The notes under the pieces were generated by a model. It saw only the letters and a list, made by a program, of their open reading frames with translations. It did no database searches and was not told the DNA's origin. A DNA stretch of 63,957 nucleotides, counting the filler, from Basidioascus undulatus (Eukaryota), in NCBI GenBank assembly GCA_000826855.1. It is 3 parts of 3 records of this genome, joined end to end, with 100 filler letters (N's around TTAATTAATTAA, not from the genome) between each part and the next. Parts side by side here need not be neighbours in the genome. Positions count along the whole stretch, not along the records: positions 21,929 to 43,755 come from JTLS01000315.1; 2 more parts are not named here. The stretch is one strand, 5' to 3'. The translations under genes were made by a program, and so were the position numbers. Shown here piece by piece: positions 10,899-41,530 of the stretch (positions are counted from its first letter, which is position 1; every line of letters starts with the position of its first letter).

Positions 10899-12217
10899 TC
10901 TGGTACTGGAGTGTGAGGTAGCCTGAGTAAGGCTGGGCGGTGGTGGGGAAGGGATGGAGCGTTGGGGCGGTGAGGAGTGGCCCGGACGACTACTGAATGT
11001 TCGCGGTCTCATAGGTCACGGCCTGCGGACGCCGTTCATTCCCGGAATGTACCGATCTGTGCAAGCTTCCATTAATTCTTGCAAGACCCACGCAGGCGAT
11101 TACCTTCATGCGGAAGCTGGATTTGCGTGCGTCCAGTGGACCACTGTTGTTGATGAAACAAGAGCTCGGACTACACTGACAAAAACTTCAGGCCAATCAC
11201 AGTATGGCTGTAATGAACTTCACCGCGTATCGAGACAGGGCTTCTGCTTCAAAGTCTCCAAACCCTTCCACATCCCTCACTACCACCTGAGCCCAGCAGA
11301 GTGGGGGTTTTGAATGACCCCTGTTTATGAATTTTTAACCCTAAGTTCTCCTGTTTCATTCAGTGCTTGTATCACCCCAAGAAATTAGTGTAAGCTGTGT
11401 GTTGGGGAAGCTATACGGCACTGCGGACATGTGGACACTGCGTCGATGCGGTAACCCGCATGCTGGGTGGTTCAGTTCTCAATTTCACGTTCACCTGCTT
11501 CAGTGTGTTCTATGGGATAAAGCTTCCTTTTCAGAACAGCGGAATAGCCAGAGAGACAAAGATCCAGGACCAGTCGTAGAGACTGTGCGGCCAAGGAAGG
11601 TACGGCTGCAGAAGACGTACTTCCTCTCGCATTTCAGGCGAATTCGGTTGGCTATACTTGGGCCTTACACACAAATCATATTGATCTACTTAGAATTGAC
11701 GGATGCATTCTGCATTCCAATTCAGGACTTTCCCCCCAGTGCTACGTGCCTTCACGCCGAGGAAGAGAGCAGACATTGGCGAAAGGTCGTCGCTCAGGTG
11801 TCAACTGTAGGTGAATTCCAGAGAAACGACCATTAGGCAAAGAAAGGTCTACACGATAATGTCCCTCGGAGCTCTGTAAGAAGATGCAGTACCGTGGACA
11901 CTACCAGGCTGCGCTGAGGTTTGCAGTGGGTTGTGGCTGGCGGGCTCTTACCGCTACTCCGCGGCTGAGCTTGCTTGCTCGGAAGAATAAGATGTATACT
12001 TAGATTTTTGTTTAGAATATCTGGTATTCAAACTGCTTGCAGCCCATCGAAAGGCAGCCGTTATGACCGCGTCGAAGCTGAGACAAACGCTCAAGCGCGT
12101 GAACGGCGCGACCCCCAGCGCTCGTGCGCTCGCGAGCCCACCTTGAACCTCACCATCATCATCTCGGCTCACGCATACTCACGCTCCTCTGACTAACCCC
12201 TCACCGATCGCGCCGAT

Positions 12218-15200
12218 ATGGGTGCCGGTCTTTCAACTTCGACTTCGGCCTCCCGCGGCTTCACGCTCGACTCGTTCGTCGCCGAGCTGGGCGGTGATGT
12301 TGTCTACGAGAAGAGGTCCGGCTCTCCCAGTCGATCTCGTTGTTCTGCGCAACAGATTTCGCTGATAGTTGAAGGTTACAGCCTGGGAACATCGCGGTTC
12401 CTAAAGACCATTCGAGGACGCAACAAGAATGGGCGCATCGTCGTCAAGATCTTCAGCAAGGCCGACCCCGGCATGCCGCTGTTCCAGTTCGTGCGAAGGC
12501 TGAAGAGTGCGTGGATCATCATTGCTCGGGATCATGCATGGGTCTGATAGGAGGGGGGATTAAGAGGAGCGCACGCAGCTCATGGGCATACCGAACGTCT
12601 ACACCTATCAGCACTTTATCGAGACCGAGAAGGCGGGCTACATGAGCCGGCAGTGGCTGGGGAGCAATCTGTACGACCGGATAAGGTGCGTGTCCATATT
12701 TCGTGCTGCAACGAGAGAAAAGATGGGAGTTTGTGGAACGTACAGGGATGGTTTGGTTGTACGAGCGTCTTCGCCAAGCCGGAGAACGAAGCTTACGGAG
12801 GAGCGCTGCTCAAACCCCTCATGAACCACGAGCTTATCCCTTACCCCAAACCAGCACTCGGCCGTTCCTCAGCCTCGTGGAGAAGAAATGGATCGCCTTC
12901 CAGCTCTTGTGTGCCATGCGGGATGCTCGGGCATGCAACGTACGTCTCTATAGCTTGTCCCATCGGCCCGGCGCTGATCTCATTTGTTTCCCAGGTCTCT
13001 CACGGCGACATTAAGTCCGAGAACGTGCTCGTGACGTCCTCCAACTGGGTCTACCTCACCGACTTCGCCGCGTTCAAGCCCACCTTCCTCCCGCTCGACG
13101 ATCCCTCCGACTTCTCCTTCTTCTTCGACACCTCCTCGCGCCGGACATGCTACGTCGCGCCCGAGCGCTTCTATGAGGCGGACTCGAAGATCGCGAAGAG
13201 GAGGGAGGTGGAGCTCGAGCGCGGCGACGAGCACGAGGGCAAGCGCGTCCGCGTAAGCGAGGCGATGGACGTGTTCTCTGCGGGCTGCGTGGTAGCCGAG
13301 CTCTTCCTGGAGGGCAGCCCGCTGTTCACGTTCAGCCAGCTGCTGCGGTACCGCGAGCGAGAGTACGACCCAGAGCCATCGCTGGCTGGGATCGAGGATG
13401 AGCACATCAGGGTGCGTTCAGGCGTCGACAGCTTGCCAGTGTGTACTGATCGATGGTCTCCCCCAGGATATGGTTCGCAGCATGATCTCGCGCGATCCGT
13501 CCGCGCGCCTGTCATTCGCCGGCTATCTCTCAGAATACCGCGCGAAAGCCTTCCCCGAGACGTTCTACATCTTCCTTCACTCGTACCTCGCGGGCATCAA
13601 CGAGATCGTCTCGACCTCTCCGACCCCGCCGCCGTCCGGCTTGAGCTCGCAGCCCGCTCCGTCCAACGCGTCCGCAGCGGGCGACGTGCCAGCAGTCCCA
13701 TCGTCCGGCTCGAGCTCGAGCGTGGTCGCGGATGAGAGGATCGAGCGCCTGTGGGCGGATTGGAGCGAGATCGCTTCGTATTTTGGCGGCGAGGCGGTGA
13801 CGAACGACCACGCTGGCGGATGCGAAGCGGCGGAAGCCGTCGCGCCGTCCAAGGTGCTTTCCCGGCGTCGCTGGATTGCCTGGTCCGCTGGCCCCAAGCT
13901 GACTTTGCTGGTTACAGACCGTCTTCCCCGTTCGCCTCAACATCCCGAACGTCCCTTCACCTGCTCTTCAGCCTGCGACGCCCGGACAGCACACCGATGA
14001 AGGTGGGACATGGCTCAACTGGTCAGTACGTTCAGGCGACCAAGCTGACATCGCATGCTCAACAGACGGTACCGCGCTGATCGTCTCCAGCTTGATCTGC
14101 GCAACGATGCGCAACTGTCTCCGGCCGAGTTCGAAACAGCGCGCGCTCGAGCTCCTCCTCGCTACCGCTCCTCATCTTTCCGACGAGACTAAGCTCGACC
14201 GCATGCTGCCTTACGTCGTCTCATTGCTGGCCGACGAGGTCGCTCCTGTCCGAGCCGCTGCATTACGCACGGTGACGCAGCTAGTGTGTACTTTGTGACC
14301 TTCTCCAGATCCATCAAAGTTGATGATATGTCTTTCACACAGCTCCTCCTCGTTGGCGCGATCACCCCCTCGAACGCCTCCGTCTTCCCCGAGTACATCG
14401 TTCCACACATCCAGTCGCTCACGACCGATCCCGACGTCGGCGTCCGCTCGATGCTCGCGCAGTGCATAGCACCGCTGGCTGAAGTCGGAGGACGCTTCCT
14501 CGAGATGACGCAAGCGATGAAGGCGCACGGCTCGTTCAAGCTCGGGGCGACCTCCGATGGGGAGCTGTTGGACGGGACGGACGCCTTTGAGGTGGGTCCC
14601 CCTCTGCATCTTTCCCAAACGTTCTCCGCTAATGATCCAATTTTCCTAAGGCTTCCTACGACGTCTCGCTCCAGGACCTGCAGAACGTTGTCCAAACGCT
14701 CGTCACCTCGCTCCTCATCGATCAATCGCCGGTCGTGCGCCGAATCCTCCTCTCCAACGCCGTGCCCCTCTGCCTCTTCTTCGGCCGCACCAGGTCGAAC
14801 GACATCATTCTCTCGCACGTCATCACATACCTCAACGACCGCGACTGGCAAGTTCGCGCGGCGTTCTTCGAGAACATCGTCGGCATCGCGACGTGCGTCG
14901 GCGGGCGCAGCGTCGAGGAATACATCTTGCCTCTCGTCGTTCAGGCGCTCGCCGGTAAGCAGCTTGACAACGCTCTTGGAGAGTCTCTTATCTTACATGA
15001 ATGGGCTTGAAGACGTCGAGGAGACCGTCGTCGTCAAGGTACTCAACGCGCTGACGAGTTTGGCGGAGCTCGGCTTGTTCAACAAGATCAGGCTATGGGA
15101 GCTCATCAACGTCACCGCCGGTTTCCTCGCTCATCCGAACGTGTGGATGCGCCAGAGTGAGTGCTGATTCATTACATTACGAGTCTTTACCGCCCTGACA

Positions 15201-18200
15201 TCCCGTTTGAAGGCGCTGCGGGTTTCATCTCCGCCTCGGCCAAGCAGCTCCCGGCCACGGACGTCTGGTGCATCATCTACCCCTCCCTCCGTCCTTTACT
15301 GAAAGCCGACCTGCGCGTCATCAACGAGCTCTCCTTGCTGGACACCGTGGTCGAACCTGTGAATCGTTTTGACTGTAGACTGATTTGCACGACAGAGTTC
15401 TGACAGCGTTCTCTAGCTTCCTCGCCAAATGCTCGAAGCCGCGATGGCATGGTCCCTCAAGCCGGAGCAGTCGCTGTTCTGGAAGGCCGCCGCGCGCGAC
15501 AGCAGAGGCAAGGGAGCTGTTGCGATCCCCAAAGACGGCTTGAAGGCGCTGCGTAGTTCGATGCTTCTGCCTGCGAAAGGCACACTCACGCTTTCAGACG
15601 AGTGAGTCCGCATTTGAGTTAGCTTTTGATGTGTGCTCTGACGCACATCACCCTCATGTAGCGACGAGATTCAGCTCGAGAAGCTACGGCATGCGGGCTT
15701 GAAGCCGGAGGACGAGGTCAAGCTCGTGGCGCTGCGCGACTATCTTTGGTCCGTGGCGCATATGCAAAGGTGCGTTCACGTGCTTACCTCCGCTGTGCTA
15801 CAGCTGAACATCAATGCCCCCTTTCAGCTCGACCAGCCGCCTCGGCGTCGGCACGGACGGCGAATCGATACGTGCCGGCGACAGCGTCCAGCTCTCCGAC
15901 CTCAACGTTGCTCCTCAAACGGTCTTCGTAGGCCTCCGCACCTCCGAACTTGTCGCGGGCTCCCTCGAAGCCGCTCTCCGTCCGCGCAGCAGCCTCTCGC
16001 GCCAGCAGAGCATCGAAAGCTGGTCACGCCACGTCTCGATGACGCCGCGCATGACGCCTCCCCCAGACATGACACGCAGCTCGCGCGACTACGGCGCGAG
16101 CGATCTGCGACGCCGTCTCGCGCTCGGAGACGGCTCTTCCACGTCGCTGGCGCTGCCGAGTCCGCCCTCCCAAGAGCTTTCGACGCCGAACGCTCTCGAC
16201 ATCCCCGGATTGCCCCAGCTTTCCCAGCGTCCTGTCGAACTCGCACCGTCCAGCCCGTCCGAATCCGCCATTTCCTTTTCAGCTCAGGGCTCGCCGATCA
16301 TCGGCCGCCATCGCGGCCGCAGGGTGCCCATCGGCTCTTCCGACACCCAGAAAGCCGCGCCCGCCGTAGCGTCCAGCATGACGAACGCCATCGGCACGCT
16401 CGAGATCCCTTCTAAGCTGCGCCAGCTTGAGGAGGAGGCGCTGGTCTCCGGTCGGACGACGCCTGTGTCCAACGTGGGCGGTCCGTCCGGTCGAGCTGAC
16501 TACCACACGTTCGAGTCGAGGCCGTTCTACCACACCTACGGTGCGCTATCCCGCTGAGTTTGACTCCCTTGCGGCGTCGAGCTCATGCTGTGTCGCTTCG
16601 TGCAGAGGGCCGCGATCCTGCCATTCTCACCCTCCTCGAGCAAACATGCCTCGACAACTTCCGCCCACCCATGCCCGAGTTCGGCCCTCGCATCACGCCT
16701 GGGCCGCCGCGGCGCCGCGCGATCCGTCAGACGTTCCATCCGCGCGAGCGGTCCAACCGCACTTCGAACGCGACGCTCATCGCGCACCTCACCGAGCACA
16801 AGTCGGCCGTAACTGCCATCGCCGTCTCGCCCGACCACCTCTTCTTCGTCACGGCCTCGTCCGACGGAAGCGTTCGCGTATGGGATTCAGCGCGCCTTGA
16901 GAAGAACGTGACGAGCCGGGCACGCCAGACGTTCTCGCGCGACGGCGGACGCGTTACCGCGCTGTGCATGCTCGAGAACTCGCACTGCGTCGCCATCGCT
17001 GCGGAAGACGGGAGTCTCGCTGTCCTTCGCGTGGACGTGACACAGGGCAGCTCGATGCCGAAGTACAGCAAGCTCACCGTGATCCGGGACTATCAACTCG
17101 AAGACGAAGGCGAGTACATCACGACGATGCATCATTTCAACACCGGTGAGCGCATCATAGGTTTCAATCGTATCGGAATACCTCTCTGACTATTTGTTGC
17201 CCCTCAAGACACTTCCTCTAACCTCCTTTTCGCCACATCATGCTCCACCATCTCGATCCTTGACCTCCGCACTCTTCGCACTACTCTCTCAATGACCGCC
17301 CCGCTTGAACACGGCCCGATCACGAGCATCTGCGTCGACCGGCGCCGGACGTGGCTCGTCGCCGGCACGGCATCGGGCCACCTCACGCTGTGGGACCTCC
17401 GCTTCGGTCTCCTGCTGCGCTCATGGCGCGTCCGGCGGCCGGGCGCGACGGTGCAGCAGATCGAGCTGCACCCAAACAAGGGCCGGGGCCGGTGGATCGT
17501 CGTCGCGCTGGGCGAAGCGCCCGAGGGCCCTTCGGCGCGCGCTCAGGTCCCCTTCGTCGAGGTCTGGGACGTCGACCGTGGGCGCCTGGTCGAGTCGTAC
17601 GAGATCGGGTCGACCGGCGAGACTGAGCCGATAGCTTCATCCGCTTCCTCCGCTGGACGCTCGCCGCAGCCGCCCGCTGTCCAGGCTCCCCCCGACCCCG
17701 TCGTGCTCTCGCCAGCCGAGGCGATCGAGCAGATCCTCCGCACCCGCTCGCAGGCGTCGCCCTCCCCTTTCCCTGAACCCGCCCCCGACTCATCCACATC
17801 CCTTCTCGTTCCCGTTGCGCCCTCCGCCCGAACGTTCCTTGTCAGCTCGTCCAGCGAGTCGTCGCGCACTGCACCGGGATGGGTTGACGGCGCGGTATCC
17901 GTTGTGGGCGATACGCTACCCCCGGGAAGCGACGGGTACCTCATCGTCGGTGGAGACGACCGGCGAATACGCTTCTGGGATCTGGGGGCCTGGGAACGTT
18001 CGGGCACACTTAGCGGCGGCGACCTAGACGAGAGAGGTCCGACGTACTCGTACGTTGTCGATACTTTCGTCTGTTCGCCCTTGGAGATTGAAGCTGACAT
18101 TTGACCTCGTCAATAGTACCGAGCAACCTGCGTCCTCGTCCTCGCCGGTCCGGCACATCGAGCAGCCCGCGACGGCGCACCACCGCCGACATCGGACGGC

Positions 18201-18342
18201 GCTCATCAGCCACCAGCAGCAGCACCTGCTGCGACAGCACCACGACGCCGTCACCGCGCTCGGCTTCCTCGAGTCTCCGTTCCGTTGTCTCGTCAGCGGC
18301 GATCGCGCGGGGGTCGTAAAAGTGTGGCGGCTGGAGGACTGA
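12218..18342 (+). CDS. VPS15: PI3-kinase regulatory subunit Vps15 (kinase-HEAT-WD40), multi-exon
   Basis: MGAGLS myristoylation motif; LYDRIS|TRPF; HGDIKSENV..LTDFAAFKPTFLP..RRTCYVAPERF; HEAT region ITYLNDRDWQVRAAFF; WD40 repeats; ends VKVWRLED*. Confidence 0.97.
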
Positions 18343-25484: not shown

Positions 25485-27631
25485 CTAGTTCTCCCTGTTC
25501 AGCAAGTCCTTGACCGCCTGCTCGCACGCCCTCCGTCCCTCCCCTTCTTTGCACAGATCGTGGCCTCCCTCCACCGTATCCCACCTCACCAGCCCGCACC
25601 GATGCGTGACCTGCGTCGCGAGGTCGCGCTGCGCAGCTTCCCAGCCCGGCCTGCGCGCGAGCGACTCAGAGGAGCTGAGGACGATCGCGGGCGCTTTGCG
25701 GGGGTACGTGCGCGCGTTGTCGAGGAGCGTGAGGCGGGAAAGCGAAGCTAGGAAATTCGAACAAGCGTCAGTAGAGGTTTTGAAATGTGAGAATTGGAAG
25801 GTAATAGAGACAACGCACTGAGGTCATGAGACAAATACGTCTCCTGCAGCAGTGCCTTGCTGAGCGCCTCGTTCCTCCCCCTTGTCTTGCGCGTCGCGAG
25901 CGTCCTCCCCTCCTTCGTCTCGCCCCTGCCAAGCATCGCGCCCCACTTTCGGATGCCCAGGGGCGTCGTGACGGCGGGCAGCCAGCGCGCGAAGATGCGG
26001 TGCACGGGCTGGCGGAACGCGAGCGGCAACCAGCGGAAGTAGCGCGGCGCGCGCGGAGGCGCGAAGTACAGCTGCGGCGTTTGCGCGTCGATGTGCAGGA
26101 GGGAGGACGTGAGCTGCGGGTGCATCGAGGAGAAGGTGCGGGTGACGAGGCTAGGGAGAGCGCGCAGATGTGAGCAGGGGAGGTTGAAAGCAGGAGGTTA
26201 ATGAACGCACCCTCCGTAGCCTTGCCCGACCAGGAGGAAAGATTGGGACTGCGAGAACTCTCCTGATTTGTTAAGCGCTTGATGAAGAGCTTCGGAAACG
26301 TGGGCGAGCTCGGAAGCCGGGGCGTTCTCAGAGAAGCCGTATCTGTTGCGTGCTTGAGTGAGCTTTGCGACTTGGGGGCGAAGATTAGACATTCAAGACG
26401 CACCCCGGCCGGTCCCAGTAGCACAAACGAGCCGTCTCCCCTCGGTTCTGCATGTCGCGCAACCACTGCGCCCCGACCGTCCCTGGGACGCCGCTCGCGC
26501 TCTCGAACATGACCGTCGGAACGCGCGAGCCGTTCAGCGTCGTCGGACCCGCGCAGTCTATGTGGACGTTATAGGACGTTTGGGTGTCGTACGGCCTAAT
26601 GGAGACGCGCTGGGAGGTGGGCGAGGGCAAGGGTGTGGAGGCGTCGTAGGCGCGTAGGATGAGGTTCACGGTGAGGAGCTGTCGGGAGAGGTGATTAAGA
26701 AGACGGAATTGAAAGACAGAATGCGTGAGTCACGCACGAAGAGGACAATTGTCCCCAGGAAGGACAGCAACATCGACAGCGCCTTGAGGATGAACCGGCC
26801 GGCCTTGTGCGGCCACGAATCGCTGGTCCGGAGCCGTGTGTACGCCTCGCGCGAGAACCGCGCCTCCTCGAGCTCGACGACGCGCACACGGAGCTTCGTA
26901 TCGCGCACGACCCACTCGGAGACCATGACGAGCGCCAGGCTCGCTAGGACGAGGAGCGCCGTGGAGAGGCCGAGCCACGACTCGCGGTGCCGGAGGTCGG
27001 CCACGGCCGCGAGGAGGATGACGTCGGTGAGGGCGAGGAGAGTGGCCAGGTAAGTCGAGAGGAGGGAACCGGTGGACGGCGTGGTGAAGAAGATGAGGTT
27101 GGAGAGGAGGATGTAGGTCGAGGTGACGGAGAGCCAGAACGGCAGGAAGGTCGTGGAGCGGGAGGGAGGAAGGTACGGGGAGAGGTCGGAAGACGTGTTG
27201 AGGCCCGTGAGAAGGGTGAAGACAACGGAGACGGCGAGGAGGAGGAGAAGCAGGAGATGGAGGAACTTCACGCGGCCCTTGGGAGGTGAAATATAAATGA
27301 TCTGTTAGTTGAAGTCAGGATGGGAGATCGAGAGATTAGGCTCACGAAAGCAAAGATCGACGGAGGTGTTTCTCTCTCCGCCGGCAACGTCCGCCGCGAG
27401 AGGCTCAGAGGAGGGCTCACGGAGCGGCTCAGCAAGCTGGTGGTCTCTGTCGGTCTGTAAAGGACGATTCGTGAGTGCTGTACCCGGGATCTCGCAGAGA
27501 TAACCGACGCACTCATTGTGGATGACCTCGCCTCGCTCAGCGCCGTTCCCGTCCAGCCCGGTTCTGGCGCCAGCGGCTTCGGCCTCGTCCTCCTCCGAGT
27601 CCTTCTTGCTGCTGTTGGACCACCACGGCAT
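25485..27631 (-). CDS. Integral membrane protein with C-terminal alpha/beta-hydrolase fold
   Basis: N-terminal TM helices, then VHIDCAG, TVMFES, CYWDRPG|YGFSENAP, LLVGQGYGG, LLHIDA and ends CEQAVKDLLNREN*; a conserved fungal architecture. Confidence 0.8.
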
Positions 27632-28063
27632 TTGTGGATGGTAAAAGATGGTAGTGGTAAGATGTAATGGTGAGAGGGAAGGTGTGGTGGAGCTCGAAGC
27701 CCGGGAATAATGGTCCTCGAGGCTCGATTCAATCTCGATGACGCACTTTGGTTGCCCCTTCACGCGATGTGCACGATCTGAAATGCTGCTTGGACACTAA
27801 TGATTGTTCAAACTGTCTTTGAGCATTATCCAGCCAAATTGTGACGATTTTATAAATAGATTTCTAGGCCGATGGTGATCCACGCAAAGCAAACTTCAAT
27901 TTACCGTGCAGTTTGGCGACGCTCTGCTCTCAGTCAAAGTCCCCCAAGCAAACAAAGCGAACTTTCACGTGACAGCTAGACTGGGAGCGCGTTGCTCGCT
28001 GCTCTCGCCCGACCATCACCATCGAAGCAACATCTCATCGCGTCTTCGGATGCACACACAGCT

Positions 28064-31000
28064 ATGAGCGATGCATCGAATGCCGCAACGCCCGCCGAGC
28101 TCCGCGATGCTTTCCCCAAGCTAAGCGAAGGCGCGCTCGCCGAGGCCTGGCGCGCCTCCGCCGGGAACCTCGAGAGTGCCGTCCAAGCGCTGTCCGTTGC
28201 AGACGCGGAGCGTATGTGCGCTAAGGCAAAGGAGGGAAGGGACAACCATCAGGAGGATCTGGCGGTGGAAAGTCGCGCGGGCAAGCGGAGGGAGGTCGTC
28301 GAGATTGATAGCAGCGACGAGGCCGACTCTGGCCCGGAGGACGCCGCCGCAGGAGACGCCGCTTCGAGACCTTCGAACGGCTTGGGTAGCGGCGCAGGCA
28401 CTCCGAAAGACGCTGGTGCGAGTTCCTCGTGCGCGCCCGCGCCCGCACCGTTCACCATCGATGACGCTCTCGCTTCGGTCTTGAGCATCGTTCCGGACGT
28501 TCTGCCCGCACACGCTCGCTCACTTCTCGTATGTCACCTCGATCGACTCGGGCCTTGACATCACGCTCATGCACCTCGTATCCTTATAGGAAAAGCATGC
28601 GTCTAAAGAGCACGAAGGTAGGCAGACTCTGCGCGCAGTGTCTTTGCATATGCTGAGGCGTGGTTCGGCAGCGATCGGCATCGTTGTGGACCTCATCTTC
28701 GACGACGTCTCCTACCCAAGAGCGCCAGACTCCTCTCCCTCCAAGAAGCGCAAACGCGCGAACGACGACGGTGCCGATGCGGGCCTCCCCGCCAAGGCGC
28801 GCGCGCTCGAGTTCGACTACGGCAAGGTCGAGGGGCGTGCTCGTCCGACATCGGCTAATTACGCCGGGAACACGCTCACGCAGCTTCAGTCGGACTATCC
28901 GCTCGTTCCGCTCGCTTTGTACATTTTACGCAGTCCAACTCCATTCGCACCACCCGCTAACTGAAATCGCTGACATCTCTCCTCACCTTCTTTTTCGCCG
29001 TACCTCCTTTTCGTCTCTTTCGCGGCGCCTAGCATTCGCGCGACGCTCAAGCAGCAAGGCGACTTCTATGCGCCCACGCACGCTGCGCTCGCCGAGACTG
29101 CTGCGCTGGTCGCGAAGCCGTACAAGGACAAGAAGGTCCCGTTCCGGGCGAAGGGCAAGCTTCCGGCGGATCCCGAGTTCAAGGCGGAGCTCGAGTGGGT
29201 CAAGTCGCTGGAGAGTGAGTCTTCTTTCAAGCCTGACGCGTAGCCTGACGCGTAGTCAGGCTTGACAGTCGAGGGGCAGCATTACGTGCACAGCACGGGT
29301 TTCGGCCAACTGGGCACTTGTTTCAACTTACTGACAAGCTCGCCCGCTTTGTCAGTGAGCAAGATCGCGGAAAACGACGCGGAAATCGCGGAGCAGCTGG
29401 ACGAGGAGGAGAATGGCGGGATCGAGTGCGGCTGCTGCTTTGGCGAGTATGCCTTTGTGCGTCGTCTCCGCTTTTCATCTCCGGCGCGCTTTTTACTGAA
29501 CGTGTGGAGTTCCGCTGGAGCAGGACAAGATGGTCCAGTGCGAGGAGGGGCACCTCTTCTGTTCGGCCTGCGCGAGAAGGGCGGCGGAGGAGCAGATCGG
29601 ACATCGCAAGACGGTGCGTCTGAACTGGAGCATGGCTAGCAGGGGCAAGGATCGCTGACAACTCGGCTGATTCAGGAGCTAAAATGTCTGTCATCCGATG
29701 GCTGCATGTCCCGCTTCCCGATGAGCGAGGTCAAGCGCTTCTTGCCTGTCAAGGTTCGCATCGCCTCTTATCACGGTTTCCCTCCTGTGCTAACGCCCCC
29801 TCCCGCAGACGTGGAACCTAGTACGTTACGCGTGCAGCCTCGCTGATGATATGAAGCTGAGACTGACCTCTGCACCGAAGCTGCACCGCATCATCCAAGA
29901 GCGCGAGATCGAAACCGCAGGGATCGAAGGCCTCGAGAGCTGCCCGTTCTGTCCGTTCAGCGTCATCATCGACAACGCGGACGAGAAGCTCTTCCGCTGC
30001 GAGAACGAGGAGTGCGCGGCGGTGACGTGCAGGCAGTGCAAGAAGGCGGTACGTCCTCTCCTTGTGAGCGTCGACGGTCTGGGCTGCGATGCTGACCGCA
30101 TGGAGGACGGCAGAACCACCTTCCGAGTAAGCCATCACGAACAGAGCACTACGCGTCGTCGCTGAACAGTGGATTTGGACCAGGATCCTGCCAGGGTAAG
30201 CTGACGGATTCACTTTTGCGTCCCGATCGCAGCTCATCACATGGTCTGTCTGCCTCGCAGAGGTCGAAGACAACAAGAAGCTGGACGCGAGGCACACGGT
30301 CGAAGAGGCCATGACCAAGGCCCTCATCCGACCCTGCCCTCAATGCAAACAACCGGTATGCTTCTCAAAGTTCCCCGGACTTACACTTCGTGCTGACATC
30401 GTTCTCTTCCGACAGTTCATGAAGTCGGATGGCGTAAGCGCTCAGCCCTTAGTCCGGTTCTCTTCAGCAGCTGACATTGTGGCTGTCGCTTGATGCTCGA
30501 TGCAGTGCAGTACGTCATCTCGTGTCGTGGACTGTTATCAGTTTCAAAGGCTGACTTGTCACATTCACGCAGACAAGATGACCGTGCGTCCGTTCGCCAC
30601 TGGAAAACGAGCTTCCTGCTGATCATCGTTGCTGGACAGTGCCCGAACTGCCGCACCATCAGCTGCTATGTCTGCCGCAAGGCCATCACCGACGGCTACA
30701 AGTACGTCTCCTCAAGTCCTCATGTGGCTGAGGCCGCTCACGTCTTTTCCTCATCGCAGCCACTTCGACCAGAACCCGGTGGGACCTACAGTACCAGTTT
30801 CTCCTCACATCGCAGGCTCAGGTGTTGACGCACGTGTTACAGGCCGCATACGACCAGCCGCGCAACACCAGAAAGTGCCCGCTCTGGGAGGATGCGAACC
30901 AGAGGTAAGTGTTCGATTATTCCTAGGCCCTTTTGGGGAGATTAACGTAATCCTCCATTGTCTTTTCAGGCACGACCGCGAGGTAAGGCCCGCGATGAGT

Positions 31001-31645
31001 CGTCCAAGTTTGACATGACTAACGTCATTCTTTCGGACAAGGTTACCGAAGCTGCACGAGTCGCGCAAGAAGCGGCGCGCCAAGGCAACGCGGATTTGAA
31101 CGAAGACGACGTCCAGGTCGAATTGTAGTTCGCGTGTGCGTCTTCTCGCAGCGCCGTTTAAGTCTAACTGTTTTCTCTCTCAGACCTCGCAACGCCGCTG
31201 CTGGCCATGCCCAACCGGTGCCGTACCCGTACGGCCCGGCGATGCCTGGCATGCCTGGCGTCTTCATCGCCGGCGGGCCGGCGGGCGTGCATTTCCACGC
31301 CGGTGGGCCCCCCCCAGGCATGGCGAGTCATGACTGATTCATTAAATCGACTTGATGTTGTCGCTGACCAATTGCCGTCGTTTGCAGGAGCAACTCATCC
31401 AGCAGCAACAAGCGGCGGCGCAAGCAGCCCGAGCCCAAGCTCAAGCCGCGCACGAGGCAGCCCGTGCAGCCCAGCACGCTGCGCAGGTGCACGTTCAACA
31501 GGCGCGGCAGGAGATGCTCCGTCAGCAGCAGCGCGATGCTCAGGCGTATCGCGCGCGGCTGGCTGCTCACCAGGCTGAGCTCGACAGGCAGCAGGAGGAG
31601 GTGAACAGGGCCCGGCGGGCTCGAAGGGATGCTAGGAGGAGATGA
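28064..31645 (+). CDS. RBR (RING1-IBR-RING2) E3 ubiquitin ligase, RNF216/TRIAD3-like, with CUE-like N-terminus
   Basis: RING1 ECGCCFGE..C.EGHLFCSAC; IBR CPFCPF..CENEEC..CRQC..NHLPRSC; RING2 CPQC..FMKSDG|CN|KMT|CPNCRTISCYVC assembled from micro-exons; Gln/Ala-rich coiled tail. Confidence 0.9.
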
Positions 31646-32665
31646 GGGGGGCGGTTGGCGGTGAGAAAGGTGGTCTGGTGGGCATGAGAGAGATTTTGGG
31701 ACGTCGCCTGGCGCTTTTGGCGGTTTCGTTTGCTACAACACTGTTCGCATTTCCTGGGCTTTTGTTTCTGTACCTCACTGTCGCATCGCTCGTCCGGCAA
31801 TCCCTGTTTGTTGTTCGAATTGAACTAGTCAACACCTTGTGTGGGAGCTTTTCCAATCAGTGATGGTGGATTGCGACCGCGACATGCAGCCTCGGTCTGC
31901 ACGTGTTCCACGCAGGCTGCGAAGTGGCCATCCTTTGGTCGGAAGTGGGGCGCATGGAACGAAGCAGCTCTGACGCTCCTTGTAAAACAGTAAGCAACCA
32001 CGTTGACAACATTCTACTGCGACCGATCGAGACTACCATTCAACGTGGCTGCGATAGCTGCCTGGAGAGTGGAGGCGGTCCCTTTCCCGCACTTGGTCCT
32101 GGCGGTCCTGGCACGCCCCACCGATCGACGACTCGTAGTTGGCGGCTATTGCAACTTTCAAACTGAAGTGTGATGAGAAAAGGATCTGACTTCCACCTAA
32201 AGGATGGCCGCATACTGTGTAGCCTTCGGGAGCAGTTCCAGTCGGAGGGCTGTTATGCGCCTGGCGACCACTGCGCAGTTGCTCGCGCGTTCCCGGCTGC
32301 GCAGTACACCGAAGGGAACCGCACTCCTCTCGCCCATGCCAGGCTCTATTTCGAGATTGTCTTTCTATATTTGGGGTCGGAACGTTTATAAAGGTGTGAG
32401 GTGCTCGAAGAGACGCAGGCGCTTTAGCAGCAAACTCAGCGTTGACGAGTCGACGAGCCAGCCGGGAAACCCCGCAACAACCCAAGGCACGTTCGCTTTC
32501 ACAGTTGCGCAGAGCTCCACCCTAATGCAACGTCTAAGGCGCTATGCATATACAGAAATCGGAGGCGCTACAGCCTTGGCTCACATGTATTCAGCGAGCG
32601 AAGCAGCACCAACCTCCTCGACCGACTCGCCGTGTTCCCGAATCAGCAACAAGTCGCTGAGCACC

Positions 32666-35587
32666 ATGACCGCCGAGACATCGCCTCAGCTCGGCAACGC
32701 GACCATCTCGCGCCGGTCCTCTTTCACTTTCTACGACCGCACGGCTCCCGGATCCGCATGGCAATCTAAGGCGCCGACGATCATCGAGCCTGCCCCTGAA
32801 GAGCCGCCGGCCATCAAGGAGGAAACAGCTGTCCAGGCGGTTACGAAGGAGCCGGCGAGCGAGCCTTCGCATGGCCGTCTTCTCCCGCTACGCCAGTTCT
32901 TGATCGTGTACGCCTGCCTTGCGCTTGCCACTTTGCTCTCTTCCCTGGACCAGGTACGCTTGCTTCCAGCTCCTGGACCGTGCGACATCGTTGTAATGAG
33001 AGTGGATGCCCCGCAGACCATCGTTGCTGCAGTGCTGCCTCAGATTTCCAAGGACTTCCAGTCGGCTTCTCAGATCAGCTGGGTAGTCTCTTCCATCGAT
33101 TCAAAGCTCGACCCCTGTACTGAATGCCTTTGTCGTTTGAAGGTCGGAACAGCCTTTCTGTTGACGTCCACCGCCTTCTCGCCTTTCTACGGCCGTCTGG
33201 CCGACGTGTTCGGAAGGAAGGCTGCCTTCTTATGCGCCATGACAATTTTCTCAGGTATTTTTTTCTTCTGAACTTCCATACGGAGGAAAGGGGCTGAAAC
33301 ATTCCTGCAGGGGGCACCGTTCTCTGCGCTGTCGCCCCGAACATGGTCACGCTCAGTACGCACGCCGGGCCATGCCGACTGAAACGTAATGCTGACCCCC
33401 TTTGCTAACTCAGTCATTGGAAGAGCCATTGCTGGTGTCGGTGGAGGTGGCTGCTTTTCCATGGTACACATTGTGGTCTCCGACGTTGTAAGGTCCGTGT
33501 CGCCGCTTCAACATCTGCCATAGCTCGAAATTAGAATGACGGGAGACGACATCACCAGCCTTCGCGCTCGCGGCAAGTACCATGGCATCCTCGGTTCGGT
33601 AAACGGTGCCGGAAGCGTTATCGGTATGTCCTGCTTCTCCGGCATATGGTCCCGCGTCCTCACACTGACCCACGGGTCCACTGTCGCCAGGTCCGCTCGT
33701 CGGTGCAGGTATGTGGCAGCCCTTCTTCAAACATGGAGGTGAACGCTAACATTGCTTGATCTTCGTTTTGCAGCCCTCGCTCAGCGTCTTTCATGGCGGT
33801 GCGTCGTGCCGCTCCTGAAGTCATCTGCCTGATCGCTAACGTCAAGTTCGTACAGTTGGAGCTTTTACTTTCAACTTCCCATCATGGGGCTAGCCATTAT
33901 CTGCATTACTTTCTTCTTGCCGTCGACCGGCAACCTAGACCGCGCCAAGTTCGCGACCAAGTTCAAAACGCTGGACTACATCGGCATCACGCTTCTGCTG
34001 GCCGCCATGACCTTTGCTTGTGTACGTTTGCCCCATTCCATGGGAAGTGGGGAAAAGTATTCAAATTTACATGGCACAGCTGGCAATCAACATGGGTTCA
34101 AAAAAAGTCACGCCCGCCGTCACTGCATTCGCAACGGCTGCCGGCTTCCTCGTCTTCATTTTCGGCTATTGGCAGACCCAAGCTAAGGCCGGAATCATGC
34201 CCCCATGGATATTCACCAACATGCAAGTAAAAATCAATTCTCAACCGGCACAAGGCAGACTTACAGCTGGCTTCTTCCTTCTGCAGCTCGCTTGGCATTA
34301 CCTTCGTTCTCAACTTCTCCTTCGGGTATGTCTCAATCATTGCCCGGCTCCACAGCGCTTCCCGCTGACTTGGACGCAACAGGTGGATTTTCTATACTGG
34401 CCTCTACTATCTCCCAGTGCGAACAATCCCGACTATGAGATGAACCGCCTTGCTTACTTGGGCAATGAGGACAGGTCTTCTTCCAAGTGGTGGATCGCCA
34501 AACCGTCCTCGAGTCTTCGATAACCCTTCTCCCTTTCGTCCTGACATCAAGTGCGAGCCTTGACTTAGGAGAATTATGATCAGACCAGCTAAGACTATCC
34601 CGCAGTTCTCTTTTCGACCTTCTCGGGGGTTGCGACCTCGTACACGGGCAACTACAAGATCAGCCTCATCCTCGCCTACGCCCTTATGCTCGCTGCGGCT
34701 GTGGGTCTCGCAACGCTCGGGCGCTTCACGCCTCATGGCATCGAGATCCTCTACATGATACTTCTCGGCATCGGAAGCGGCTGCCAAATGCAGAACTCCC
34801 TAGTGGTGGGTTTTGTGCCTCTTCGCTGGTCGGACACCAGACTCATCCAGTATTTGTGTCGGGGAAAATCTCAAGGCCGCTCAAAGCGCCACCCCCAAAA
34901 AGAATGTCGCTGTCGTATCCTCCGTCCGGAACTACTTCCGCAACTCGGGTACGTACTCTCAAATTAGGCCTCGGTTTGCCGAAGCTGATGGGGGTTTCGT
35001 CTAGGTGGAGTGTTCGGCTTGACGATTTCCGGCGCGATCCTCAATGTACCTGAGAGTTTTACTCGGCAGTGACTTGAGTTCCCACTCACACCGCAATCGG
35101 CCCCACAGGTCCTCATGCGCACTACCCTGGACTCACACCTCGCGCAGGAGCTGCCCGACGAGATTCTCGACACTGTCGCTGCCGATCCTCTGGCCGTGCA
35201 CGATCTCCAGATCCTCAAGGAGTCGCAGCGCTCGTTCATGATCGATACGTACGTGAAGACGCTTGTCGTGATCTTCTGGATCTTCGTGCCGTTCACCGCA
35301 ATCGCGCTGTACGACTATTCCACTTGCTTCACGTGTTGGGAGAGACACTTACCGGTTCGCCTCGTACCAGGATATCTTCTATCATTCTTCCCGAGGTCCG
35401 CTGCTTTCGTCTTTGGAAAGGCCGTGTTGGGATTGTTCACGACTTGCTGACACTCTTTCATTGCACGCAGTTCGACCTCAACCGCACCGAAGACGGCCTG
35501 CCGGTCAGGCGCCCCAACCTCTTCAAGCGTCTGTGGCGAAGACTGGCCCGCCATGAAGACTCAGAGGAGCCCAACGGCACAGCCTAG
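32666..35587 (+). CDS. MFS multidrug transporter, DHA2 (14-TMS) family, many small exons
   Basis: LSSLDQ|TIV, WVGTAFLL, YGRLADVFGRK (motif A), GRAIAGVGGGG, VSLRARGKY, WRWSFYFQLP, LDYIG. Confidence 0.9.
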
Positions 35588-40178: not shown

Positions 40179-41530
40179 ATGCCTCACGTTCAGATAGATT
40201 CGAACCTCGCTCTCGGATATCACTCTTCTGTACCCGAAGGTCAAATCGACGGCTCGAAGCCGGTTCTAGTGCTTCTCCAGTCCGTCTCCATACGTTGGGA
40301 CTTCGCGTTGTGACTGACATGACGAGACTTTGCAGTGGCTACATCGGCGAAGCCTCCCTCTTCGAGCGCCAGTTTTCTGACCCCAGCTTGACAGAGCGCT
40401 TCACCCTCGTCCGTTCCACTTCGTCCAAATCGAACCTCTTCGGAACTCACAGTCGTCCTATTCGCTAGATCGCCATCGACCTGCCGGGCGCCGGTCTCTC
40501 CTGGGACGTCCCTGCCCTGACCTCCCTTGCCGGACTGCCAGTGCTCGCGCAGCAGCTCGTGCGAGCTGTAAACCTGCTCGTACCGGACGCCGCTCATGTC
40601 CACCTTCTCGGCCACAACGTCGGGGCGCTCCTGGTCGAACTGATGCTGGCGCACGCCCCCGAGCGCTTCGGCTCGTCCGTGCTCATCAGCCCTGTCGGTC
40701 TGAAAAAGGTGCGTCCACTCCCAAGAATTCAGAAAACAGAAAAAAAGATAAGCTGAGGCGATTTTAGACCGCTTCGCCAAGCCAGGACACGAATATCGCC
40801 TCCGAGTTTGCGGACTTCTGGGACTTCCTGCTGGAGGATGACCCGGAAGCGTCGCCCGAGAAGCGCTTCGCCGTTGCATGCGTGTACAGCATTTTGGGCG
40901 ACAGGGTTGAGCCCGAGGACGAGGAGCGGATGTGCGTCTGCCCTTCCCTCCCTCAGTCTCCACGCACCAGCCGCTCACGTCCTTGACTCCGCACTGCAGG
41001 ATCCAGATCGGGATGCGGGAGCTGCACGATAACTCGGACGGCGGCGTGGAGAGGCGCCGGAGCTTCGTCCGCGCTGTTACGATGGGCAATTCGGGGTTCG
41101 GGAAGGAGGAGCTCCAGGGCTTGACGCATTCGGTGCTGGTTGTGCGGGGGAGTGAGTTGTCTTCTGATTTTTCTACTTAGCCTGCAGGCAGGAGTCCTGA
41201 CTTTGACCACGTTCGCAGCGGAGGATCACACGCAGTCACCCGAGGTCGCTCGAGTAAGCACCTATGCACTGATACCTCATGTTCCACTTTATTGAAACTC
41301 CCCCTAGGAGCACCTGGACGCGCTTAGCAACGCCAAGACACAGTTCCTCGAGCTTCCGGGAGAGCCGCACTGGGGCTTGTTCATGAAAGGAGGGGCGGAC
41401 AAGTTCAATCCACTGTGCGTCAATCAATCTTCACTCGACTTCACGTCTGCGGGTTTGGAAGATTATGCTAACGATACTCCTTCCCCTCAGTTTGTTGGAG
41501 TACTTGACTACCGGTTCTGTGAAGCAATGA
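40179..41530 (+). CDS. Alpha/beta-hydrolase fold protein with atypical nucleophile elbow (GHNVG)
   Basis: VLVLLH|G, IAIDLPGAGLS, VHLLGHNVGA, VLISP, VLVVRG.ED and ELPGEPH; the spliced frame is open. Confidence 0.8.

What the first reader, a model, noticed from the sequence alone, without database searches (positions are those of the whole stretch)
30416..30700. Catalytic cysteine of an RNF216-like RBR E3 ligase is encoded by a 4-nt micro-exon
Seen: exon 30416-30433 (FMKSDG), intron ending TGCAG, exon TGCA (30506-30509), GTACGT donor, 11-nt exon ACAAGATGACC (30573-30583), then TGCCCG from 30640. This splicing rebuilds G-C-N-K-M-T-C-P-N-C. Known: the Cys of the RING2 GCxxM motif forms the ubiquitin thioester (Parkin C431, HHARI C357). 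Inference: skipping the 4-nt exon removes the active site and frameshifts, whereas skipping the 4+11-nt pair deletes CNKMT in frame and gives a dead ligase. This could act as a splicing on/off switch. Gene predictors are likely to miss it and call the ligase inactive.
Basis: partly seen in the sequence, partly recalled or inferred. Interest (0 to 1): 0.72.

Follow-up and report, generated by a model that had tools for sequence, protein, structure and literature searches.

The report
Four-base exon carries ligase catalytic cysteine
In an intron-rich fungal gene for an RNF216-type ubiquitin ligase, the codon of the active-site cysteine almost certainly sits on a four-base exon, but such tiny exons are already known in these fungi and nothing shows that this one acts as a switch.

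Summary
The exons are 30416-30433 (18 nt), 30506-30509 (TGCA) and 30573-30583 (11 nt), with the next exon starting at 30640. They are separated by 72-, 63- and 56-nt GT-AG introns with CTGAC/CTGAT branch sites.

An exhaustive spliced search finds only this exon chain that restores the RING2 motif. Shuffled controls reach the family motif in 1 of 5000 trials. A usable 4-nt exon alone arises in 37 of 5000.

The gene (28064-31645, +) has 22 exons in my model, 7 of them 18 nt or shorter. It encodes a 723-aa RNF216/TRIAD3-like RBR ligase.

Among 62 solvable relatives out of 79 metagenome loci, 57 share the phase-0 intron just before the catalytic Cys codon. None has the two introns that create the 4- and 11-nt exons. 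These two introns look lineage-specific.

No RNA run was listed, so splicing is inferred, not shown. The on/off-switch idea has no support. Exons of 1-3 nt are already documented in Coprinopsis. Verdict: real, ordinary in kind, a neat extreme case.

The parts
28064..31645 (+). Whole coding region of the RNF216/TRIAD3-like RBR E3 ligase gene in my model: 22 exons, 21 introns, 723 aa.
   Evidence: Model built by reading and checked by translation. It has one stop, at the end, and aligns without gaps to P0003/P0004/P0005 through the RBR region. blastp of the model gives P0004 1e-133 and P0003 2.5e-129. The 5' and 3' ends are less certain; intron 21 uses a GC donor.
30261..30355 (+). Exon 12 (95 nt). 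It encodes the helix and the first CxxC of RING2 (...ALIRPCPQCKQP).
   Evidence: tblastn to P0003/P0004/P0005; exon chain.
30356..30415 (+). Intron 12 (60 nt, GTATGC...ACAG, CTGAC 19 nt from the 3' end), phase 0. Relatives have an intron 2 nt upstream of this position (phase 1).
30416..30433 (+). Exon 13 (18 nt), F M K S D G.
30434..30505 (+). Intron 13 (72 nt, GTAAGC...GCAG, CTGAC 31 nt from the 3' end). It is a phase-0 intron between Gly and the catalytic Cys codon. This position is shared with 57 of 62 solved relatives.
30506..30509 (+). Exon 14 (4 nt, TGCA): the catalytic Cys codon plus the first base of the Asn codon.
   Evidence: chance control 37 of 5000. No RNA evidence.
30510..30572 (+). 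Intron 14 (63 nt, GTACGT...GCAG, CTGAC 18 nt from the 3' end), phase 1. It is found only in the window. It has no in-frame stop, so retention would add 21 residues.
30573..30583 (+). Exon 15 (11 nt, ACAAGATGACC): the rest of Asn, then K M T.
30584..30639 (+). Intron 15 (56 nt, GTGCGT...ACAG, CTGAT 17 nt from the 3' end), phase 0. It is found only in the window.
30640..30701 (+). Exon 16 (62 nt), C P N C R T I S C Y V C R K A I T D G Y and 2 nt of the next codon.
29809..29820 (+). Exon 8 (12 nt, T W N L), another micro-exon of the same gene.
   Evidence: model and alignment.
30114..30126 (+). Exon 10 (13 nt). The intron that follows it (phase 1, inside the codon after N-H-L-P) is found only in the window.
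30184..30195 (+). Exon 11 (12 nt).
30970..30982 (+). Exon 19 (13 nt, completes R, then H D R E).

Best explanation
The region is part of an intact, intron-dense fungal gene, probably basidiomycete, for an RNF216/TRIAD3-type RBR ubiquitin ligase. An old phase-0 intron sits immediately before the catalytic Cys codon of RING2 and is shared with most relatives.

In this lineage two further short introns lie within the next 15 coding bases. One comes after TGCA and one after ...ACC. As a result the catalytic Cys codon is isolated on a 4-nt exon and N-K-M-T on an 11-nt exon.

I infer that the three introns are each recognised across the intron (intron definition). The exons are too small to hold a 3' and a 5' splice-site complex at once, so the introns would be removed one after another. 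The result is one constitutive mRNA that encodes an active ligase.

Shown: the sequence anatomy, the uniqueness of the exon chain, the homology, and the absence of the two introns in relatives. Inferred: that the RNA is spliced this way, that inclusion is constitutive, and that the two introns were gained rather than lost elsewhere.
For: 1. Anatomy. Introns of 72/63/56 nt fall within the gene's typical range: 19 of 21 introns are 52-72 nt. Donors are GTAAGC, GTACGT and GTGCGT, the three commonest hexamers in the gene (3, 4 and 3 of 21). Branch sites CTGAC/CTGAC/CTGAT lie 31/18/17 nt from the 3' end.
2. Only this exon chain restores the family motif. Shuffles give 17 of 3000 (loose motif), 1 of 5000 (family motif) and 37 of 5000 (4-nt exon alone).
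3. The rest of the gene is intact. All RING1/IBR/RING2 Cys/His columns align with P0003/P0004/P0005. blastp gives 1e-133. PDB hits are RNF216 only for the window's own exon. A gene kept intact everywhere else needs its catalytic Cys.
4. Tiny exons are normal here. The gene has 7 exons of 18 nt or less. The neighbouring MFS gene has an 18-nt exon. A strict tandem-intron scan gives 6 candidates in the window against a mean of 0.3 in random sequence.
5. Relatives. 57 of 62 solved loci have the Gly|Cys intron. In 51 of those it follows a 20-nt exon. 0 of 62 have an intron inside C-N-K-M-x-C. In a relative that 20-nt exon is seen spliced in RNA: L017 is a polyadenylated intron-less copy of an L015-like gene.
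6. Published precedent. In Coprinopsis cinerea, 1,165 gene models have an internal exon of 15 nt or less, and there are 13 exons of 1 nt (PMC12230235, passages).
Against: There is no RNA evidence for this gene; no RNA run was listed. No genome of a close relative was available; the best relative is about 70% identical in the 56-aa exon. So the 4-nt exon is not confirmed by conservation.

The 4-nt exon taken alone is only moderately improbable by chance under minimal GT/AG rules (37 of 5000).

Gain versus loss is not settled. In an 87-column tree the window sits in an unresolved basal position with Botryobasidium and L052, outside a clade of 62 rows with SH-aLRT 94. A single early loss in that clade is therefore not excluded.

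Constitutive inclusion is an inference from signal strength and from what is described for fungi.
Confidence: 0.78

Rival explanations
1. Regulated switch. Exons 14+15 form an in-frame 15-nt cassette whose skipping yields a catalytically dead ligase, or skipping of exon 14 alone yields a truncated, NMD-prone transcript. The cell would use this to tune ligase activity.
For: The arithmetic is right. Skipping both exons removes C-N-K-M-T in frame (718 aa). Skipping exon 14 gives G-T-R-stop. A regulated micro-exon has been reported in a filamentous ascomycete, Trichoderma Xlr2 (PMC11121469; I saw only the search listing and the start of the abstract).
Against: No RNA data exist. The splice signals are strong, not weak. 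The same gene has five other exons of 12-18 nt that nobody would call switches. The cassette is absent from 62 of 62 solved relatives. An in-frame pair is expected one time in three from two phase-0 boundaries. Fungal mis-splicing is described as intron retention rather than exon skipping (PMC3925392 passages).
Confidence: 0.06
2. Chance or decay. The RING2 region of this copy is broken (a pseudogene or a dead paralogue), and the apparent micro-exons are a coincidental reading.
For: There is no RNA support. The 4-nt exon alone arises in 37 of 5000 shuffles under minimal rules. The whole genome was not available to look for a second copy.
Against: The family motif arises in only 1 of 5000 shuffles. 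Both extra inserts have complete donor, branch and acceptor signals and typical lengths. All the other 18 introns keep the frame, and every conserved Cys/His is present.
Confidence: 0.05
3. The main or a frequent product retains intron 14. The intron is 63 nt with no in-frame stop, so retention gives a 744-aa protein with 21 extra residues directly after the catalytic Cys.
For:: retention of intron 14 keeps the frame open. Intron retention is the commonest fungal splicing variant (PMC3925392 passages).
Against: Twenty-one stop-free codons are unremarkable; I estimate about one chance in three, not from a call. The intron has a consensus GTACGT donor and a CTGAC branch site. The insertion would split the conserved G-C-N-K-M loop, which is contiguous in all 46 distinct relative peptides.
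Confidence: 0.05

Closest known systems
Constitutive micro-exons of intron-rich basidiomycetes (Coprinopsis cinerea long-read annotation, PMC12230235)
   Same: These are internal exons of a few bases flanked by short (~50-70 nt) GT-AG introns. Leaving one out breaks the frame, and they are hard for gene predictors. The paper reports 1,165 gene models with an internal exon of 15 nt or less, and exons of 1, 2 and 3 nt (passages).
   Different: Here the exon is inferred from DNA only. It carries the codon of an enzyme's catalytic nucleophile, and it is next to a second micro-exon (11 nt). The organism has no close relative in the databases searched.
Human RNF216 (TRIAD3), RBR E3 ligase with active-site Cys688 (PDB 7m4m, 8eb0; PMC9834252)
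   Same: The RING1-IBR-RING2 order is the same. The RING2 loop ...K-x-x-G-C-N-[KR]-M-x-C aligns residue by residue through the orthologue P0003. The window's own IBR exon hits only RNF216 chains.
   Different: The fungal protein has a different N-terminal half and a Gln/Ala-rich tail. It reads C-P-N-C where the human protein reads C-R-C. Biochemical activity and K63 specificity were not tested.
Orthologous genes of other Agaricomycotina (79 metagenome loci; Botryobasidium P0003, Obba P0004)
   Same: They share the phase-0 intron before the catalytic Cys codon (57 of 62 solved loci) and the introns after C-K-K-x and after ...S-C-x. In 51 of 62 the preceding exon is also tiny (20 nt).
   Different: None has an intron inside C-N-K-M-x-C or inside D/N-H-L-P-K/R-S-C. 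The window lacks their phase-1 intron in the codon after ...E-E-A (codon 34 of the pattern, 'aa33.1').
Regulated micro-exon of Trichoderma virens Xlr2 (PMC11121469)
   Same: It is a fungal micro-exon whose inclusion decides whether a functional domain is made (start of abstract only).
   Different: That case rests on observed alternative mRNAs. Here no alternative mRNA has been observed, and the signals look constitutive.

Membership tests
RBR (RING-between-RING) E3 ligases, RNF216/TRIAD3 subfamily | RING1-IBR-RING2 arrangement with conserved Cys/His zinc ligands | tested here: met
   The spliced model aligns without gaps to P0003/P0004/P0005 from G-I-E-C-G-C-C to C-P-L-W. blastp gives 1e-133 and 2.5e-129. 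The orthologues carry Pfam IBR PF01485 above cut-off. Pfam could not be run on the spliced window protein itself. The contiguous window exons gave no Pfam hit at E 0.01 or better.
RBR (RING-between-RING) E3 ligases, RNF216/TRIAD3 subfamily | Closest solved relative is RNF216 rather than another RBR (ARIH1/2, parkin) | tested here: met
   P0003: RNF216 7m4m 6e-45, against ARIH2 2.4e-6 and parkin 1e-3. The window exon P0001 hits only RNF216 chains, E 3e-5.
RBR (RING-between-RING) E3 ligases, RNF216/TRIAD3 subfamily | Catalytic Cys in the RING2 loop G-C-N-x-M | tested here: met
   The Cys is present only after splicing in the 4-nt exon. It aligns with the Cys of human G-C-N-R-M-S-C. That Cys is C688 by my residue count, which assumes 3 leading residues on a 511-784 construct.
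RBR (RING-between-RING) E3 ligases, RNF216/TRIAD3 subfamily | Forms a ubiquitin thioester and transfers ubiquitin | not testable with these tools
   This needs the expressed cDNA product and an E2-discharge assay.
Spliceosomal micro-exons of basidiomycetes | Internal exon of 15 nt or less flanked by canonical short introns with donor, branch site and acceptor | tested here: met
   Intron table. Lengths are 72/63/56 nt, donors GTAAGC/GTACGT/GTGCGT, branch sites CTGAC/CTGAC/CTGAT, acceptors CAG/CAG/CAG.
Spliceosomal micro-exons of basidiomycetes | Junctions seen in RNA | not testable with these tools
   No RNA run was listed for the gene, and no genome or transcriptome of the organism is held. 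RNA proof exists only for the 20-nt exon of a relative (L017 against L015).
Regulated (alternative) micro-exon switch | Two or more isoforms that differ by the micro-exon, with changing ratios | not testable with these tools
   No RNA data. Indirect signs (strong splice signals, no conservation of the cassette) point the other way.

The most novel reading that the evidence does not exclude
The 4-nt and 11-nt exons form a lineage-specific, in-frame cassette. Skipping it, or retaining the stop-free 63-nt intron 14, would be used to make a ligase-dead RNF216-like protein that still binds E2 and ubiquitin chains. That would be a fungal micro-exon switch acting directly on an enzyme's catalytic nucleophile.
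Probability: 0.05. Interest if true: 0.65.

Novelty: new member of a known kind. Interest (0 to 1): 0.3.

Why it matters
The practical point is annotation. A predictor that misses a 4-nt exon will either truncate this ligase or report it without its active-site Cys. Even the 20-nt exon of relatives is visibly mis-modelled in public proteins (7 of 150 representatives).

The evolutionary point is that three window-specific introns sit inside exons that were already tiny (25 nt and the start of the RING2 exon). This makes the gene a compact example for studying intron gain and the lower size limit of exons under intron-definition splicing.

It does not open a new kind of biology. Exons of 1-3 nt are already documented with long reads in Coprinopsis.

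Tried and rejected
- RNA evidence: the look-up of sequencing runs on 28000-31700 listed no RNA holder. This is no evidence either way.
- Whole genome: none is held, so paralogues and the genome-wide micro-exon rate could not be examined.
- Organism identity: the 56-aa exon search and a VPS15 exon search found no protein from the same or a closely related organism. Best identities were 62-71%, spread over many Basidiomycota. The top VPS15 hit, P0006 (labelled Racocetra persica), scores high only because the model contains the region twice.
- Introner or repeat origin of the new introns: blastn-short of all 21 introns against the window gave only 11-15-nt chance matches (E 0.04 or higher), and no intron matched another intron. 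Rejected at window scale.
- Other features on either strand: there was no Rfam family in 27500-32200. Minus-strand stop-to-stop ORFs, such as 30417-30665 (82 aa), are no longer than the spurious open frames on both strands of this 58% GC sequence and were not pursued.
- The long 70-residue pattern solved only 34 of 79 loci because it was too strict. I used it only for intron positions in those loci, and used shorter patterns for the counts. In one search some minimal-intron solutions read into an intron at the loose 3' end, and one (L075) is spurious. I drew from that call only that no credible relative splits D/N-H-L-P-K/R-S-C.
- Earlier notes of this scan: nothing for this genome or for this sequence.
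- Searches already indicated that the organism is not represented.
Full report
**What is in the sequence**

The letters and coordinates in the finding are exact.
- After exon 12 (30261-30355, ending ...C-P-Q-C-K-Q-P) comes a 60-nt intron.
- An 18-nt exon follows at 30416-30433 (F-M-K-S-D-G), then a 72-nt intron ending ...GATGCAG.
- The four bases TGCA lie at 30506-30509.
- A 63-nt intron follows, starting GTACGT and ending ...CACGCAG.
- The 11 bases ACAAGATGACC lie at 30573-30583.
- A 56-nt intron follows, starting GTGCGT and ending ...GGACAG.
- A 62-nt exon starts with TGCCCG at 30640.

**Is it more than chance?**

I wrote an exhaustive spliced search. It tries every GT/GC...AG intron of 35-250 nt and keeps any exon chain whose translation fits a loose RING2 pattern.
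On 30200-30800, with at most 5 introns, it returns that chain plus one variant that only adds a fifth intron further downstream.
- I shuffled the 206 nt between the 18-nt exon and 30640, preserving dinucleotides. A loose-pattern solution appeared in 17 of 3000 shuffles.
- The family motif C-N-[KR]-[MI]-x appeared in 1 of 5000 shuffles.
- I then kept the 11-nt exon and shuffled only 30434-30572. A usable Cys+1-nt exon appeared in 37 of 5000 shuffles.

These controls ask only for GT and AG. The real introns also have the gene's commonest donor hexamers (GTAAGC 3, GTACGT 4 and GTGCGT 3 of 21). They have CTGAC/CTGAC/CTGAT branch sites 31, 18 and 17 nt from the 3' end. Their lengths fall within the 52-72-nt range of 19 of the gene's 21 introns.

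**The gene**

My model runs from ATG 28064 to the stop at 31643-31645. It has 22 exons and 21 introns and encodes 723 aa.
- It aligns without gaps to three named basidiomycete proteins across RING1, IBR and RING2: P0003 (Botryobasidium botryosum), P0004 (Obba rivulosa) and P0005 (Vanrija albida). Every conserved Cys/His is in place.
- blastp of the model gives 1e-133 to P0004 and 2.5e-129 to P0003.
- P0003 matches the solved RNF216 RBR (7m4m) at 6e-45, far ahead of ARIH2, ARIH1 and parkin. In that alignment ...I-K-E-H-G-C-N-K-M-T-C pairs with human ...I-K-S-E-G-C-N-R-M-S-C.
- The window's own 56-aa IBR exon hits only RNF216 chains (E 3e-5).
- Passages of PMC9834252 name C688 as the RNF216 active-site Cys and give the construct as residues 511-784. 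With three leading residues on the 277-residue chain, the aligned Cys at chain position 181 is C688. That arithmetic is mine.

The family assignment and the catalytic role of the Cys on the 4-nt exon are therefore well founded by homology. Activity was not tested.

**Tiny exons are the rule in this gene**

Seven of the 22 exons are 18 nt or shorter: 12 nt (29809-29820), 13 nt (30114-30126), 12 nt (30184-30195), 18, 4 and 11 nt (the finding), and 13 nt (30970-30982).

I also ran a strict scan of the whole window for two strong short introns separated by 1-18 nt. It finds 6 candidates on the + strand and 0 on the - strand, against a mean of 0.3 in random sequences. Three of the six are the finding. 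One (33691-33708) is a frame-keeping 18-nt exon, G-P-L-V-G-A, of the neighbouring MFS transporter gene. The 4-nt exon is the extreme of a common local pattern, not a singular device.

**Relatives**

A scan of metagenome contigs with the 56-aa exon gave 79 loci, at best 68% identical. The same spliced search solved the RING2 region in 62 of them.
- Nine of the unsolved loci have less than 700 nt downstream.
- The other eight have motif variants or other intron positions.
- 57 of the 62 solved loci have a phase-0 intron exactly between the Gly and the catalytic Cys codon.
- In 51 of those 57 the intron is preceded by a 20-nt exon.
- In 0 of 62 is there an intron inside C-N-K-M-x-C.
- Among the unsolved eight, L078 has an intron one codon upstream of the window's third intron, and L018 has one in a later Cys codon. 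Neither coincides with the window's positions.

A longer pattern solved in 34 loci shows which introns the window shares.
- Shared: the introns after C-K-K-x, after ...S-C-x, and before the catalytic Cys.
- Missing in the window: the relatives' phase-1 intron in the codon after ...E-E-A (codon 34 of the pattern, 'aa33.1').
- Unique to the window: three introns. One splits a 25-nt exon into 13+12 nt, and two create the 4- and 11-nt exons. One search supports the first of these.

The new introns resemble neither each other nor anything else in the window.

**Gain or loss**

In a short tree (87 columns, quick search) the window sits with Botryobasidium and L052 in an unresolved basal position. 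It lies outside a clade of 62 rows with SH-aLRT 94. Gain in the window's lineage is the more economical reading, but one early loss in that clade is not excluded.

**RNA evidence**

None exists for the window. No RNA run was listed and no genome is held.

There is indirect support from a relative. L017 ends in a poly-A run. It is collinear with genomic locus L015 at 98.9-100% identity through the RBR exons and onward (91% in the block upstream), with the introns precisely missing. The 20-nt exon is included. So fungi of this group do splice such exons into mRNA at this very spot.

Published long-read data for Coprinopsis cinerea report 1,165 gene models with an internal exon of 15 nt or less. 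They also report 13, 57 and 27 exons of 1, 2 and 3 nt (PMC12230235, passages).

**The switch idea**

The stated consequences are right.
- Skipping exon 14 gives G-T-R-stop.
- Skipping 14+15 removes five residues in frame.
- I add that retention of intron 14 also keeps the frame and adds 21 residues.

Nothing favours regulation.
- The signals are strong.
- The gene has five other exons of 12-18 nt.
- The cassette is not conserved.
- An in-frame pair follows one time in three from two phase-0 boundaries (my estimate).
- Fungal splicing is described as intron-defined, where failure gives retention rather than skipping (PMC3925392, passages).

A regulated fungal micro-exon has been reported in Trichoderma (PMC11121469; I saw only the listing and the start of the abstract). 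The idea is therefore not absurd. I put it at about 5%.

**The annotation warning**

Of 150 representative proteins found with P0003, 140 carry a catalytic-type motif. That total is 101 strict matches, 33 with variant flanks, and 6 variants that I classified by eye. The other 10 lack the motif. Seven of those 10 break or read into intron right after the first CxxC of RING2, where the 20-nt exon lies. I cannot tell truncated contigs from prediction errors for the rest. P0002, a 107-aa 'TRIAD3' model, reads through two introns.

**Verdict**

The micro-exon is very probably real but unproven at RNA level, and the switch is unsupported. In kind this is a further example of basidiomycete micro-exons. 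Two things are particular to it: the exon holds a catalytic nucleophile, and it arose from introns not seen in any sampled relative.

Two earlier notes of this scan describe tiny-exon arrays in other basidiomycete genomes. They agree with this picture but are unchecked notes, not evidence.

Noticed in passing
L017 (whole locus) against L015; also L028 and L041: The 'metagenome' collection holds spliced transcripts. L017 ends in a poly-A run and matches genomic L015 at 98.9-100% identity through the RBR exons and onward (91% in the block upstream), with all introns precisely absent, including those around the 20-nt exon. L028 and L041 are likewise intron-less in this region.
   Followed up: partly
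window 30510-30572: Intron 14 is 63 nt long and has no in-frame stop. Its retention would keep the reading frame and insert 21 residues right after the catalytic Cys (744 aa instead of 723).
   Followed up: partly
window 30501-30510: The pentamer TGCAG occurs twice in tandem: the end of intron 13, and then the 4-nt exon plus the G of the next donor. A second CAG therefore lies 5 nt downstream of the modelled acceptor. Using it would destroy the donor of intron 14.
   Followed up: no
window 33691-33708 (+), also 33785-33798 and 41236-41253: The strict tandem-intron scan finds further micro-exon candidates. The first is a frame-keeping 18-nt exon (G-P-L-V-G-A) of an MFS transporter gene. The second looks like part of a 25-nt exon with a different acceptor. 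The third was not examined.
   Followed up: partly
window ~12200-18340 (+): A VPS15-type protein kinase gene (kinase, HEAT and WD40 parts). It is 62-70% identical in the kinase domain to many Basidiomycota, with no close relative in the database.
   Followed up: partly
P0006 (protein labelled Racocetra persica, partial): This public model matches the window's VPS15 region twice in tandem (residues ~8-730 and ~733-1488 hit the same window stretches). It looks like a duplicated or mis-joined gene model, which explains its inflated score.
   Followed up: partly
window 31323-31387: To keep the frame into the Gln/Ala-rich C-terminal exon, my model needs a GC-AG intron (ATG|GCGAGT...TTGCAG), close to a run of eight C at ~31309-31316. 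The 3' part of the model is therefore less certain.
   Followed up: no
window 28919-29032 and 29215-29355: Two introns of the gene are much longer (114 and 141 nt) than the other 19 (52-72 nt) and contain several CTGAC/CTAAC sites. Unrecognised tiny exons inside them are not excluded, although the protein alignment needs none.
   Followed up: no
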